From assembly GCA_007692655.1 (NCBI GenBank), contig REBQ01000240.1, positions 10,727-74,726 of the forward strand: a stretch of 64,000 nucleotides of DNA, in the 5' to 3' direction. Numbering within the stretch: the first letter of the stretch is position 1; each line of letters starts with the position of its first letter. Shown here piece after piece: positions 27,601-40,794 of this stretch. Origin of the DNA: Halomonas sp. (lineage in GTDB: Bacteria; Pseudomonadota; Gammaproteobacteria; Pseudomonadales; Halomonadaceae). The notes under the pieces were generated by a model that was not told where the DNA came from, did not search any database, and worked only from the letters and a program-made list of their open reading frames with translations. The position numbers and the translations under genes were made by a program.

Positions 27601-27933
27601 ATGAGTATTTATCAACCGCTGCAGACAGCGCTTCTTGAACTGGAAGCGTCCATGAAAGCTGCCGATTTATGGCAAATGACCACACCTGATGCCAGCGCCT
27701 TCGCCAGCCAGCAGCCGTTCTGCATCGATACCATGTCACTGCCGCAGTGGATTCGCTTTGTATTTATTGCACGCTTGAATGCATTAATCGATGCCAATGC
27801 CACGATGCCTGCTAAATGTGAGATAGCGCCCGCGGTAGCGGCCTATCTGCAGCAGGAAAAAGTACCTTCCCACCACCAGTTACTTATCGTACGGGCAGCA
27901 GAGAAGGTGGATCAGTTAGTCACTGAAAGCTGA
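27601..27933 (+). CDS. yqcC: YqcC (DUF446) family protein
   Basis: LWQ...AFASQQPFCIDTMSLPQWIRFVFIARL...P.KCEIAP. Confidence 0.85.
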   Translation: MSIYQPLQTALLELEASMKAADLWQMTTPDASAFASQQPFCIDTMSLPQWIRFVFIARLNALIDANATMPAKCEIAPAVAAYLQQEKVPSHHQLLIVRAAEKVDQLVTES

Positions 27934-35876: not shown

Positions 35877-36239
35877 CTACTGCTGTTGGCGGAGTGCAGT
35901 GTGCGCGAACAAATGGTCCCGAAGGGCCTTAAGTTCTGCCTGCCCCTCTTCATTAAGCAGCGGTTTACCCTGAGCAATCTGCCATCTGCGCCCGTGCTCC
36001 TCCATTAGGTGAGCCGCGCGGCGCCTAATCCCGTCTAAATACTCATTATGACGAATAGGGTAACCGATGATAGCGTTCCACTCTGTTTCACTCACTTGAC
36101 TATCTAATGCTTTATCAAACAGAGCTAGCAGGTCTTTCGGCTCAGTGCGGTAGCGCGGCGTACTTGACGTCATCAGCACCAGCATTACCGAACCGAGCAC
36201 CAATAGACATACCCCAAACACTAATAGATACAGCGCCAT
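35877..36239 (-). CDS. Hypothetical protein with an N-terminal TM helix
   Basis: 120 aa; RBS AGGAG; minus-strand TATAAT at 36291-36286. Confidence 0.7.
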   Translation of the reverse strand: MALYLLVFGVCLLVLGSVMLVLMTSSTPRYRTEPKDLLALFDKALDSQVSETEWNAIIGYPIRHNEYLDGIRRRAAHLMEEHGRRWQIAQGKPLLNEEGQAELKALRDHLFAHTALRQQQ

Positions 36240-36330
36240 TCGCTGTGCTCCTAGTAGGCGATTTCAGTGAATGAAAAGCCACTTAATTATACGCTTCACG
36301 CTGCTTGAGTCGAAAATTTAACATTTTTGC

Positions 36331-36362
36331 GAACTTTTCCTTCACAGCGTGTCTTAGTTAGT
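36331..36362 (+). promoter_or_regulatory. sigmaE/AlgU-type promoter (candidate sRNA-1)
   Basis: GAACTT-N15-TCTTA-GTTAGT; the spacer is one base shorter than the optimal 16. Confidence 0.55.
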
Positions 36363-36458
36363 ACAGGCAACATCGCGATAGCAGTCGCTAAAGTTGTTGT
36401 TCTGGCTCTATTGTTTTGATCCCTTGCTTCCGCTACTCATTGAGTAGCGGTTTTTTTT
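36363..36458 (+). ncRNA. Candidate small RNA 1 (about 96 nt)
   Basis: Plus-strand terminator CCGCTACTCA/TGAGTAGCGG + T8 in a region where all flanking genes are on the minus strand; 5' hairpin; internal TGATCCCTTGCTT at 36417-36429. Confidence 0.65.
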
Positions 36459-36512
36459 GTTCAAACACGCGCTAGGGTTTTAGCTCCCGTTCATCCGATG
36501 ACGATGATTTGC

Positions 36513-36920
36513 TTAATGACGACGAATGGTAAGCAAGGCAATCAGAATATCACGTCGTGTGACAATTCCCACTAAGCGCTGTTGCTCAACCACCGGGTAC
36601 ACTTTGGGTTTTACGCCTAACATTTCCTGAGCCAGGTCGGTAATGCTCTTGTTGGGGGAAACGCTGAGTACCTCATGGCGCATTAGCTCCTTGACTAAAG
36701 GCGCTTCATCGTCGTGATAGATGCTATCCAGCACACGGCCCAAAACATCCTGCTCCGATATAAAGCCTATTAAACGGTCGGCGCTGTCAACAACCGGTGC
36801 TCCTGGCAAGCGGTGGGTGGCTAAACCCTGGGCCAAGGTAGTAATCGAAACGTCAGATGAGACGCGATAGCAGTCACGAGACATAATGTCGCGCACGATG
36901 CTTGGGGTTGTTTTATTCAT
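36513..36920 (-). CDS. CBS domain protein
   Basis: VRDIMSRD...GAPVVDSADRLIGFISEQDVL...YPVVEQQRLVGIVTRRDIL. Confidence 0.9.
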   Translation of the reverse strand: MNKTTPSIVRDIMSRDCYRVSSDVSITTLAQGLATHRLPGAPVVDSADRLIGFISEQDVLGRVLDSIYHDDEAPLVKELMRHEVLSVSPNKSITDLAQEMLGVKPKVYPVVEQQRLVGIVTRRDILIALLTIRRH

Positions 36921-40702: not shown

Positions 40703-40735
40703 GAACTAACCCTGCTGTCGGCTATCAGAGTAAGT
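40703..40735 (+). promoter_or_regulatory. sigmaE/AlgU-type promoter (candidate sRNA-2)
   Basis: GAACTA-N16-TCAGA-GTAAGT, near-consensus with optimal spacing. Confidence 0.7.
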
Positions 40736-40794
40736 GTTCCCTTGAATGATCCCTTGCTTTTATTCTCCGGCGGTCCCTACCGCCGGTTTTTTTT
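40736..40794 (+). ncRNA. Candidate small RNA 2 (about 59 nt)
   Basis: GTTCCCTTGAATGATCCCTTGCTTTTATTCT followed by terminator CCGGCGGT-CCCT-ACCGCCGG-T8; shares 13 nt with sRNA-1. Confidence 0.7.

What the first reader, a model, noticed from the sequence alone, without database searches (positions are those of the whole stretch)
36331..36458. sRNA-1: orphan plus-strand terminator inside a long minus-strand gene block
Seen: the T8 tail is on the plus strand only, yet the nearest upstream plus-strand CDS (yqcC) ends at 27933, so no mRNA explains this terminator. The predicted RNA has a 5' stem (GCAACA/TGTTGT enclosing GCGA/TCGC), a U-rich unpaired stretch, the seed, and then the terminator. Its promoter is back-to-back with the TATAAT promoter of the 35877-36239 gene. 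Inference: an Hfq-type trans-acting sRNA.
Basis: partly seen in the sequence, partly recalled or inferred. Interest (0 to 1): 0.7.

Follow-up and report, generated by a model that had tools for sequence, protein, structure and literature searches.

The report
Envelope-stress small RNA targeting the major porin
This stretch most likely encodes a ~96-base regulatory RNA, found only in Halomonas-type bacteria, that probably shuts off the cell's main outer-membrane pore protein under envelope stress; this is a known kind of regulator in a new family, and its expression has not yet been seen.

Summary
A plus-strand-only terminator (stem 36430-36450, T8 36451-36458) sits between two minus-strand genes.

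It is the end of a conserved ~96-nt RNA gene (36363-36458). All 36 sampled genomes of the genus (Vreelandella, ex-Halomonas) have it. So do other Halomonadaceae genera, with conserved gene neighbourhood. About 290 genomes from other families of the order have no match.

Conservation begins near a sigma-E/AlgU-type promoter (GAACTT-N15-GTCTTA) and stops exactly at the T-run. Both helices show compensatory changes. No Rfam family matches, and I found no paper describing it.

The main new result is a target. The most conserved part of the RNA (GAUAGCAGUCGCUAA) complements codons 5-10 of the major porin mRNA. A second conserved stretch (UGUUUUGAUC) complements that mRNA's 5'UTR. Both pairings hold across 11 genera, with compensatory substitutions on both partners.

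Best reading: a sigma-E-driven, probably Hfq-assisted, porin-repressing sRNA that works like MicA, RybB or MicF but is unrelated to them in sequence.

Weak point: transcription is unconfirmed. Stranded RNA-seq of a related genus shows almost no plus-strand reads, but the same libraries also miss the adjacent tRNA.

A sibling sRNA at 40736-40794 shares 12 nt with this one.

The parts
36286..36313 (-). Sigma-70-like promoter of the divergent 120-aa gene (TCGACT-16-TATAAT), back-to-back with the sRNA promoter
   Evidence: scan gives 10 of 12 matches. The -10 box (TATAAT/TATACT on the minus strand) is conserved across the genus in the alignment.
36311..36320 (+). Conserved A/T block CGAAAATTTA, about 11 nt upstream of the -35 box. 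It may be UP-element-like, or it may be shared with the divergent promoter's -35.
   Evidence: Near-invariant in 30 genus loci. A similar AAAAATTT tract lies upstream in other genera. Its function was not tested.
36331..36336 (+). -35 element GAACTT of a sigma-E/AlgU-type (ECF) promoter
   Evidence: Invariant in all 30 loci recovered by blastn. The same motif class lies upstream of rpoH in 27 of 30 family genomes and upstream of sRNA-2 in all 20 fetched sequences from 12 other genera.
36351..36356 (+). -10 element GTCTTA (GTCTGA in most relatives), 15-nt spacer from the -35 box
   Evidence: GTGTC(T/A)GA is conserved while the 15-nt spacer varies freely. Other genera have GGTCA(T/C)A at the same distance.
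36363..36458 (+). Predicted sRNA-1 transcript, 96 nt. The start is inferred as the 7th nt after the -10 box; the end is the T8 run.
   Evidence: The covariance model matches 36363-36458 at 111.8 bits. The conserved block ends exactly at 36458. The 5' end is inferred, not mapped.
36366..36401 (+). 5' stem-loop: outer helix 36366-36371 with 36396-36401, inner hairpin 36375-36379 with 36384-36388
   Evidence: RNAalifold consensus. In the family alignment, 6 of 6 outer pairs show changes on both sides, while the inner hairpin sequence is invariant.
36377..36393 (+). Pairing region A: GAUAGCAGUCGCUAA(AG), complementary to codons 5-10 of the major porin mRNA
   Evidence: A 16-nt perfect complement is the longest in the genome outside the sRNA locus itself. 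The porin ranks 1 of 3344 start regions. 12 core pairs are kept in 29-31 of 31 genomes, with compensatory changes.
36409..36421 (+). Pairing region B: UAUUGUUUUGAUC (family core UUUCGAUC), complementary to the porin 5'UTR GAUCGAAACAGUA at -35..-23
   Evidence: 8-13 contiguous pairs fall at or next to this UTR site in most of 33 genomes, with compensatory changes in genus g37 and genome G017. The UTR site lies inside the transcribed leader in a related genus.
36418..36429 (+). GAUCCCUUGCUU, a 12-nt stretch identical to part of sibling sRNA-2 and invariant in the genus. Candidate seed for Shine-Dalgarno (SD)-type sites in other mRNAs.
   Evidence: Complementary ribosome-binding (RBS) sites occur in a Fur-box TonB-dependent receptor (conserved in 11 of 13 loci) and in a second porin. 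This stretch is not conserved outside the genus.
36430..36458 (+). Rho-independent terminator: 9-bp stem, 3-nt loop, T8
   Evidence: All 9 stem pairs show compensatory changes across the family. The T-run is on the + strand in every homolog.
40703..40794 (+). Sibling sRNA-2: promoter GAACTA-N16-TCAGA (40703-40729) and a 59-nt RNA (40736-40794) with 5' end GUUCCCUUGAAUGAUCCCUUGCU
   Evidence: Found in 170 of 201 family genomes and 19 of 25 genera. The 5' end is near-invariant and the promoter is textbook sigma-E type in 12 other genera. It lies about 4.3 kb from sRNA-1 in many genomes.

Best explanation
Window 36363-36458 (+) encodes a ~96-nt trans-acting small RNA restricted to the family Halomonadaceae.

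**Transcription (inferred).** RNA polymerase carrying the envelope-stress sigma factor RpoE/AlgU starts from GAACTT-N15-GTCTTA. Transcription ends at the intrinsic terminator with its U8 tail.

**Action (inferred from sequence and covariation).** The RNA pairs with the mRNA of the major general porin at two places that flank the ribosome-binding site:
- The apical hairpin region (GAUAGCAGUCGCUAA) pairs with codons 5-10.
- The single-stranded UGUUUUGAUC stretch pairs with the 5'UTR about 25-35 nt upstream of the start codon.

This should block 30S binding and/or expose the mRNA to decay. Porin synthesis would then fall when the envelope is stressed.

**Further inferences.**
- Within the genus, the adjacent GAUCCCUUGCUU stretch, shared with sibling sRNA-2, probably also pairs with Shine-Dalgarno regions of other outer-membrane protein mRNAs, such as a Fur-regulated TonB-dependent receptor and a second porin.
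- Hfq probably assists, using the U-rich stretch, the hairpin and the U8 tail.

**Shown versus inferred.** Shown here: conservation, structure covariation, promoter-motif conservation, complementarity and intermolecular covariation. Inferred: transcription itself, the exact 5' end, sigma-E dependence, Hfq dependence and the direction of regulation.
For: **Conservation and limits.**
- 36 of 36 genus genomes carry it.
- 63 named species, nearly all labelled Vreelandella or Halomonas, match an exact pattern.
- The covariance model hits 117 of 201 family genomes in 16 of 25 genera.
- About 290 genomes from other families of the order have no hit.
- Of 20 non-genus hits fetched, 18 lie beside the CBS gene. 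One more (L144) has the 120-aa and AraC genes, and one (L146) has none and was rejected as a false positive.
- The conserved block ends at the last T of the terminator.

**Promoter.**
- The -35 GAACTT and -10 GTC(T/A)GA are conserved around a variable 15-nt spacer.
- The same motif class lies upstream of rpoH in 27 of 30 family genomes, against about 1 expected by chance. It also lies upstream of sRNA-2 in 12 other genera.
- An RpoE ortholog is present at 305 bits, above the curated cut-off.

**Structure.** In the family alignment 96% of cells are paired, against 30-66% when the partners are slid. 17 of 21 pairs show double changes.

**Target.**
- A 16-nt perfect complement in porin codons 5-10 is the longest in the genome.
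- The porin ranks 1 of 3344 genes for region A, and for A plus B combined.
- The porin 5' end is conserved at the nucleotide level across 11 genera, including the rare codons TTA (31 of 33) and ACT (33 of 33).
- In an ungapped intermolecular alignment, 83% of cells are paired, against 28-57% when slid. Compensatory pairs: A-U 24 / G-C 5; G-C 21 / A-U 3; C-G 17 / U-A 2. Cells with a double change number 22, against 12.5 ± 2.7 in shuffles (0 of 500 reach it).
- Region B pairs at or next to the same UTR site in most of 33 genomes, with compensatory changes.
- The porin leader containing that site is transcribed, and the mRNA is extremely abundant.
- The target protein is a Porin_4 family member.

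**Hfq.** The gene is present.
Against: - No direct evidence of the transcript. Metatranscriptome contigs holding relatives' copies are low-depth and include flanks.
- In stranded pure-culture RNA-seq of a homolog in another genus, plus-strand depth over the sRNA is only 0-4, while antisense read-through from the CBS gene is about 100. This is mitigated because the adjacent tRNA gives no peak either, so RNAs under 100 nt are lost. A stress-induced promoter may also be off in those cultures.
- The -35 box is degenerate in several genera (GGATAA, GAATCA).
- The spacer is 15 nt, not the 16 nt seen at rpoH and sRNA-2.
- A strict motif search of the own genome finds few other sites, so no regulon could be defined.
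- Region A sits in a predicted hairpin and must open to pair.
- A 16-mer match somewhere in the genome is not rare by itself (about 0.15 expected). The case rests on its position and its covariation.
- The covariation events are few and clustered by clade.
Confidence: 0.75

Rival explanations
1. The sRNA is real and targets the porin, but its promoter is read by a different sigma factor (another ECF sigma or a sigma-70 variant) rather than RpoE/AlgU. It would then answer to a signal other than envelope stress.
For: - The own genome has four further ECF-like sigma genes.
- The -35 box is degenerate in several genera.
- The spacer is 15 nt, against 16 nt at rpoH and sRNA-2.
- Strict motif searches give almost no regulon.
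Against: - GAACTT...GTCTGA matches the RpoE/AlgU consensus known from E. coli and Pseudomonas (my own knowledge).
- The same motif is conserved at rpoH, a classical sigma-E target, in 27 of 30 genomes.
- Sibling sRNA-2 has the same motif.
Confidence: 0.13
2. The RNA is real, but the porin complementarity is a relic of its origin (an inverted partial copy of the porin leader) or is incidental. Its working targets would instead be reached through the GAUCCCUUGCUU seed shared with sRNA-2.
For: - Regions A and B lie in the sRNA in the same order as in the reverse complement of the porin leader, which fits an origin by inverted duplication.
- Region A is partly locked in a hairpin.
- Seed-complementary ribosome-binding sites exist in a TonB-dependent receptor, a second porin and periplasmic proteins.
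Against: - A relic would decay. Instead both partners are held, and they change together across 11 genera.
- Rare codons TTA and ACT are kept in the porin.
- The GAUCCCUUG seed is not conserved outside the genus, whereas regions A and B are.
Confidence: 0.07
3. There is no plus-strand RNA gene. The hairpin serves only as the 3'-end or terminator element of the convergent minus-strand CBS gene, and the conserved block is a 3'UTR or DNA element of that gene.
For: - In a related genus, CBS mRNA coverage falls about 10-fold right at this hairpin, and fragment ends pile up 3 nt outside the T-run in all 6 raw-read runs laid.
- About 8% of that transcript reads through on the antisense strand.
- Plus-strand reads are nearly absent.
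Against: - The U-run is on the plus strand only, in every homolog.
- The CBS 3' ends map before the hairpin, not after it.
- This model does not explain the 95 nt of conservation beyond the hairpin, the covarying 5' helix, the ECF-type -35 and -10 at a fixed distance, or the antisense covariation with the porin.
- The tRNA control shows the libraries cannot detect small RNAs.
Confidence: 0.03

Closest known systems
MicA (Rfam RF00078) and RybB (RF00110), the sigma-E-dependent, Hfq-binding sRNAs of enterobacteria
   Same: Both use an RpoE-type promoter, are small (70-100 nt), end in a Rho-independent terminator with a U tail, and repress abundant outer-membrane protein mRNAs by pairing at or near the start region. 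This closes a feedback loop in the envelope-stress response (my own knowledge). All these anatomical features are present here.
   Different: No sequence or structure homology: neither family appears even at E ≤ 10 in the local Rfam search or at gathering score. The taxon differs. The main pairing element here is an apical hairpin plus a second site, not a single 5' or single-stranded seed. Sibling sRNA-2, with its seed at the 5' end, resembles RybB more closely in layout.
MicF (RF00033), the ompF antisense RNA of E. coli
   Same: A trans-encoded RNA of about 93 nt with long, imperfect complementarity to the 5'UTR and first codons of a major general porin mRNA (my own knowledge). Here regions A and B together also span the leader and the first codons of the major porin.
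   Different: MicF is controlled by SoxS, MarA, Rob and OmpR, not by sigma-E, and lies next to ompC. There is no sequence similarity. Here the pairing is split into two blocks that flank the Shine-Dalgarno sequence and start codon.
ErsA of Pseudomonas aeruginosa (AlgU/sigma-22-dependent) and VrrA/MicV of Vibrio (sigma-E-dependent)
   Same: These are envelope-stress-sigma-dependent sRNAs outside the enterics that target porin or outer-membrane protein mRNAs such as oprD, ompA and ompT (my own knowledge). ErsA comes from the same GTDB order.
   Different: The family-wide covariance model R2 found nothing outside Halomonadaceae in about 290 genomes and 130 genera of the order. The window has no Rfam match. 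The genomic context also differs: here the gene lies between a CBS-pair gene and a 120-aa/AraC pair.

Membership tests
Sigma-E/AlgU-dependent OMP-repressing sRNAs (functional class: MicA, RybB, MicL, VrrA, ErsA) | Promoter of the RpoE/AlgU type (GGAACTT - about 16 nt - TCNNA) | tested here: met
   The window has GAACTT-N15-GTCTTA. The hexamers are conserved and the spacer varies across 30 genus loci. The same motif class occurs at rpoH in 27 of 30 family genomes and at sRNA-2. Only the motif was tested; sigma-factor dependence was not.
Sigma-E/AlgU-dependent OMP-repressing sRNAs (functional class) | Discrete small transcript, induced by envelope stress | tested here: inconclusive
   Plus-strand depth is 0-4 in six stranded runs of a homolog. 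The adjacent tRNA is also invisible in those libraries. Metatranscriptome contigs are uninformative.
Sigma-E/AlgU-dependent OMP-repressing sRNAs (functional class) | Base-pairing with the translation-initiation region of outer-membrane protein mRNAs | tested here: met
   A 16-nt perfect complement in porin codons 5-10. The porin ranks 1 of 3344 genes. The pairing is conserved in 31 genomes with compensatory changes. This is computational evidence only.
Hfq-dependent (class I-like) sRNAs | Rho-independent terminator with a U tail of at least 6-7 nt, preceded by a U-rich single-stranded stretch; hfq gene present | tested here: met
   A U8 tail, a 9-bp hairpin and an upstream UAUUGUUUUGAU stretch. 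Hfq gene found at 99.9 bits.
Hfq-dependent (class I-like) sRNAs | Physical binding to Hfq and stabilisation by it | not testable with these tools
   Needs Hfq co-immunoprecipitation or RIL-seq, or RNA stability measured in an hfq deletion.
Rfam families MicA RF00078, RybB RF00110, MicF RF00033, MicC RF00121, VrrA | Match to the family covariance model at or above the gathering score | tested here: not met
   No matches at gathering score in the 64-kb window or in 13 homologous loci, apart from tRNA. The permissive local search lists only NsiR1, STnc70 and Atu_L6, at E = 0.3-1.7 and far below their cut-offs.

The most novel reading that the evidence does not exclude
sRNA-1 may be half of a linked two-RNA envelope-stress module kept about 4.3 kb apart across Halomonadaceae.

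- sRNA-1 would act as a 'clamp', gripping the major porin mRNA on both sides of its ribosome-binding site. One grip is the apical hairpin on codons 5-10; the other is the single-stranded stretch on the 5'UTR.
- It also shares a 12-nt seed with sRNA-2, giving the pair a common set of outer-membrane targets.
- Read-through transcripts of the convergent CBS gene are fully antisense to sRNA-1. They could act as a built-in sponge or RNase III substrate that sets the threshold of the response.
Probability: 0.2. Interest if true: 0.7.

Novelty: new member of a known kind. Interest (0 to 1): 0.55.

Why it matters
- **First of its kind in the family, as far as I found.** I found no native regulatory sRNA described for Halomonadaceae. 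A recent review of Halomonas tools mentions only a heterologous PrrF/Hfq system (PMC12164125). This locus and its sibling would be the first defined families. They come with a concrete, testable target and predicted compensatory mutations.

- **Biology.** It extends the 'sigma-E sRNA shuts down porin synthesis' feedback loop to halophilic marine bacteria. The RNA is unrelated in sequence to MicA, RybB and MicF, so this would be convergent evolution of that logic.

[quoted passage not shown] I have not shown that it belongs to the same porin. If it does, constructs that keep the native 5'UTR and first codons would carry the sRNA-1 pairing sites. They could then be repressed whenever the envelope is stressed.

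- **Tool potential.** The RNA could also serve as a native scaffold for synthetic sRNAs.

Tried and rejected
- **Rfam.** The gathering-score search of the window and of 13 homologous loci, and the permissive local search, gave no credible family.

- **RNA-seq.** Metatranscriptome and other Logan contigs (X1-X5, X7, X9, X10) hold relatives' copies only at low depth, or do not lay at all. They cannot show transcript ends. Pure-culture contigs of the related genus are long and flat. Size-fractionated runs X43 and X44 hold nothing here. Stranded raw reads show no plus-strand signal, but they also fail the tRNA control.

- **Sigma-E regulon.** A strict consensus search of the own genome gives 6 and then 15 hits, with no recognisable regulon. 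I did not pursue it further.

- **Genome-wide RNAduplex ranking with the 3' single-stranded region alone.** This was noisy. There was no enrichment for signal-peptide proteins in the top 40-80 genes, so I treat seed-type targets other than the conserved TonB-dependent receptor site as weak.

- **sRNA-2 as a regulator of porin 1.** Not supported; the porin ranks 1577.

- **13-nt complementarity between sRNA-1 and the adjacent CBS coding region (window 36863-36875).** Chance level: about 10 such 13-mers are expected and 12 are seen.

- **One covariance-model hit (L146).** It lacks the conserved gene neighbourhood and the core motifs, so I rejected it as a false positive.

- **Small peptide.** The predicted RNA contains no ATG (read directly from the sequence).

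Full report
**1. Observation**

The 273-bp gap between two minus-strand genes holds one terminator-like site. The flanking genes are 35877-36239 (120 aa, no Pfam match) and 36513-36920 (CBS pair). The site is on the plus strand: CCGCTACTCATTGAGTAGCGG (36430-36450) followed by T8 (36451-36458). On the minus strand no U-run follows the hairpin.

The nearest upstream plus-strand ORF of any size ends at 27933. Everything between is on the minus strand. GAACTT is at 36331-36336. The description is therefore accurate. A single terminator-like motif in 1.8 kb is not above chance by itself; the case comes from comparison with other genomes.

**2. Conservation and limits**

- By blastn, 36 of 36 genomes of the same genus carry the block. 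None of 24 genomes from other families of the order do.
- An exact-pattern scan of named genomes found 63 species. Nearly all are labelled Vreelandella or Halomonas, which identifies the genus as Vreelandella (formerly Halomonas).
- In the more distant relatives, similarity starts just upstream of the -35 box. In all relatives it stops exactly at the last T of the run.
- A covariance model built from 65 distinct copies hits 117 of 201 Halomonadaceae genomes in 16 of 25 genera.
- I fetched 20 of the non-genus hits. 18 lie next to the CBS-pair gene, with the 3' ends facing each other. One more has the 120-aa and AraC genes. One lacks both this gene neighbourhood and the core motifs, and I rejected it as a false positive.
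- A broader model built from 11 genera found nothing in about 290 genomes and 130 genera of other families of the order.
- No Rfam family matches, either at gathering score or permissively.
- Literature searches found no native sRNA described for this family.

**3. Anatomy**

*Promoter.* The -35 GAACTT and the -10 GTC(T/A)GA are conserved across the genus, while the 15 nt between them vary freely. That is the signature of a promoter, not of an RNA or a coding constraint.

- The motif matches the RpoE/AlgU consensus (GGAACTT - about 16 nt - TCNNA; my own knowledge).
- The same motif class lies upstream of rpoH, a classical sigma-E target. In the own genome it reads GAACCT-N16-TCTTA.
- It also lies upstream of rpoH in 27 of 30 family genomes, where about one match is expected by chance.
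- An RpoE ortholog (305 bits, above the curated cut-off) and hfq are present.
- In several other genera the -35 box is more degenerate (GGATAA, GAATCA), while GGTCA(T/C)A is kept.

*Transcript.* It is predicted to run from 36363, the 7th nt after the -10 box, to 36458, giving 96 nt.

*Structure.*
- The outer 5' helix (36366-36371 with 36396-36401) and the terminator helix both show compensatory changes. In the family alignment 96% of cells pair, against 30-66% when the partners are slid. All 6 outer-helix pairs and all 9 terminator pairs have changes on both sides (genus-level data).
- That alignment was fitted to the model, so it leans toward the structure.
- The inner hairpin (GCGAU AGCA GUCGC) does not covary at all. 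Its sequence is fixed.

**4. What the fixed sequences are for**

I searched the own genome for complements of the RNA. The longest perfect match outside the locus is a 16-mer, UUUAGCGACUGCUAUC. It covers codons 5-10 of a 352-aa general porin (Porin_4) and pairs with sRNA nt 15-30, the apical hairpin region.

About 0.15 such matches are expected anywhere in the genome. About 0.007 are expected within start regions. By RNAduplex the porin ranks 1 of 3344 start regions for this region, and also for the two regions combined.

I then fetched the 5' end of the porin ortholog from 33 genomes in 11 genera.

- The leader (AACGAUCGAAACAGUAAGCUAGUUAAGGAAC...) and the first ten codons (ATG AAA AAG ACA CTN TTA GCG ACT GCY ATY) are conserved at the nucleotide level.
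- This includes TTA (31 of 33) and ACT (33 of 33). I take these to be rare codons in such G+C-rich genomes; codon usage was not measured here.
- The later signal-peptide codons drift at synonymous sites.

*Region A covariation.* I built an ungapped alignment of the sRNA segment joined to the mRNA segment. It was anchored only on CAGTC in the sRNA and on the start codon, so it is not fitted to any structure. In it, 12 core pairs hold in 29-31 of 31 genomes. Three core positions change on both partners:

| sRNA | mRNA | Pair counts |
|---|---|---|
| GAU**A**GC / GAU**G**GC | GC**U** / GC**C** | A-U 24, G-C 5 |
| **G**AUAGC / **A**AUAGC | AU**C** / AU**U** | G-C 21, A-U 3 |
| next pair outward | | C-G 17, U-A 2 |

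All six genomes whose porin reads GCC have G in the sRNA. Overall 83% of cells pair, against 28-57% when slid. Cells with a double change number 22, against 12.5 ± 2.7 in shuffles (0 of 500 reach it).

*Region B.* The second family-conserved stretch, (U)GUUUCGAUC (36409-36421 in the window), complements the porin 5'UTR GAUCGAAAC(AG) about 25-35 nt upstream of the start. 8-13 contiguous pairs fall at or next to this site in most of the 33 genomes. Compensatory changes again occur:
- AAACC with GGUUU in genus g37, against AAACA with UGUUU elsewhere.
- A G-to-A change in the UTR that turns a G·U pair into an A-U pair in genome G017.
- A clade-correlated pair of variants within Vreelandella.

*Is the UTR site transcribed?* RNA-seq of a related genus shows that the porin mRNA is one of the most abundant in the cell (depth up to 25,000). 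Its 5' ends lie at about -309, with a second rise near -110. The region-B site is therefore inside the transcribed leader.

**5. Mechanism**

The two pairing blocks sit at -35..-23 and +13..+33, on either side of the Shine-Dalgarno sequence and the start codon. Pairing that begins at codon 5 falls inside the window in which sRNA duplexes block 30S binding (the five-codon window; my own knowledge).

The most likely action is translational repression, and probably decay, of the major porin mRNA when RpoE is active. This is the same logic as MicA, RybB and MicF. Region A must first open a 5-bp hairpin; its loop could start the contact. Hfq involvement is inferred from the U-rich stretch, the hairpin and the U8 tail.

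**6.

GAUCCCUUGCUU (36418-36429) is invariant within the genus. It is identical to 12 nt of a second sRNA at 40736-40794. Outside the genus this stretch varies and merges into the terminator stem.

Within the genus it may reach other mRNAs.

- A Fur-box TonB-dependent receptor carries AAGGGAUCAAAA 4 nt before its start codon.
- Its relatives in 11 of 13 loci keep an extended AAGCA(A/G)GGGGAU(C/A)AAAA leader. Predicted duplexes are -20 to -26 kcal/mol.
- A second porin next to the first has CAAGGGAUCA at its Shine-Dalgarno site.
- A genome-wide ranking with this region alone was noisy and showed no class enrichment beyond the top 20. I rate these targets as plausible, not established.

**7. Expression**

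This is the weak point.

- No pure-culture RNA runs were found for the genus. Metatranscriptome contigs hold relatives' copies at depth 2-25, some with flanking DNA.
- For the homolog in another genus (locus L132, sRNA at 1501-1597), six stranded raw-read runs give plus-strand depth 0-4 over the sRNA. Antisense read-through from the CBS gene is about 100.
- The tRNA gene 140 nt away gives no peak in the same libraries. They therefore do not capture RNAs under about 100 nt. A stress promoter may also be silent in those cultures.
- The result neither supports nor refutes transcription.

The same data show that CBS mRNA coverage falls about 10-fold at this hairpin. Fragment ends pile up 3 nt outside the T-run, on the side before the hairpin. 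That does not fit termination by this hairpin on the minus strand.

**8. Rivals**

- *'CBS terminator only.'* This cannot explain the conserved promoter, the covarying 5' helix, the plus-strand-only U-run or the antisense covariation with the porin.
- *A different sigma factor.* This remains possible: four other ECF-like genes exist.
- *The porin complementarity is only a relic of an inverted duplication.* The co-ordinated changes on both partners argue against it. The colinear order of regions A and B with the reverse complement of the porin leader does suggest that this is how the gene arose.

**9. Verdict**

This is a real, family-restricted sRNA gene. It is very probably driven by sigma-E and very probably a repressor of the major porin. 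It is a new member of a known kind of regulator, with expression still to be shown.

Noticed in passing
window 40703-40794 (+): Sibling sRNA-2 has promoter GAACTA-N16-TCAGA and a 59-nt RNA, GUUCCCUUGAAUGAUCCCUUGCUUUUAUUCU, followed by a hairpin and U8. It was found in 170 of 201 family genomes (19 of 25 genera). Its 5' end is near-invariant and its promoter is textbook sigma-E type in 12 other genera. It is more widespread than sRNA-1, lies about 4.3 kb from it in many genomes, and occurs in 2-3 copies in some genera. It has no Rfam match. Its best predicted target in the own genome is a 724-aa signal-peptide protein on contig C91, not porin 1.
   Followed up: partly
L132:1598-1660 (homolog in another genus; equivalent to window ~36459-36512): In all six raw-read runs laid (X37-X42), 3' ends of the convergent CBS-gene mRNA pile up 3 nt outside the sRNA's T-run, before the hairpin. 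About 8% of the transcripts read through, fully antisense to sRNA-1. This could reflect polymerase collision or processing of an sRNA:mRNA duplex. It is unexplained.
   Followed up: no
L132:1231-1500 (+ strand RNA): Runs X37, X41 and X42 (one study), and faintly X40, show a plus-strand transcript of depth 4-20. It is antisense to the tRNA gene and fades out just before the sRNA-1 promoter. It is essentially absent in X38 and X39. Its origin is unknown.
   Followed up: no
own genome G000:C200, minus strand, 478-2772: Two general porin genes sit in tandem (352 aa and 345 aa, 67% identical). The first carries the sRNA-1 region A and B sites. The second carries CAAGGGAUCA at its Shine-Dalgarno site, which complements the 3' seed.
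   Followed up: partly
L294:188-196 and 358-495 (porin leader of a related genus): The porin mRNA has a long leader. Its 5' ends lie about 309 nt upstream of the start codon, with a second rise near -110. Reads that join positions 358-363 and 490-495 on opposite strands suggest a strong hairpin in the 5'UTR.
   Followed up: no
own genome G000:C88 (TonB-dependent receptor) and loci L199-L210: This receptor family has a Fur-box-like AATAATCATTATCATT upstream. It also keeps a conserved leader, AAGCA(A/G)GGGGAU(C/A)AAAA, that is far more extended than a plain Shine-Dalgarno sequence. In one species (L210) it forms 16 contiguous pairs with sRNA-1.
   Followed up: partly
L128-L145, about 140-260 nt upstream of sRNA-1 (up to about 700 nt in L145): In other genera a tRNA gene lies between the 120-aa gene and sRNA-1, in divergent orientation. 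The whole 64-kb window of this genome has no tRNA, so the tRNA was lost or moved in Vreelandella.
   Followed up: no
L029, L038, L050, L069 (V. massiliensis, V. vilamensis, V. salicampi and a MAG): These four copies of sRNA-1 carry an insertion of about 22 nt inside the 5' stem-loop, between region A and the descending strand. Both pairing regions remain intact.
   Followed up: no
I did not check its conservation.
   Followed up: partly
own genome G000:C239:16527-16560: About 390 nt upstream of rpoE lies GGAACTA-N17-TCAGC. This is a weaker candidate for an autoregulated sigma-E promoter. I did not compare it across genomes.
   Followed up: no
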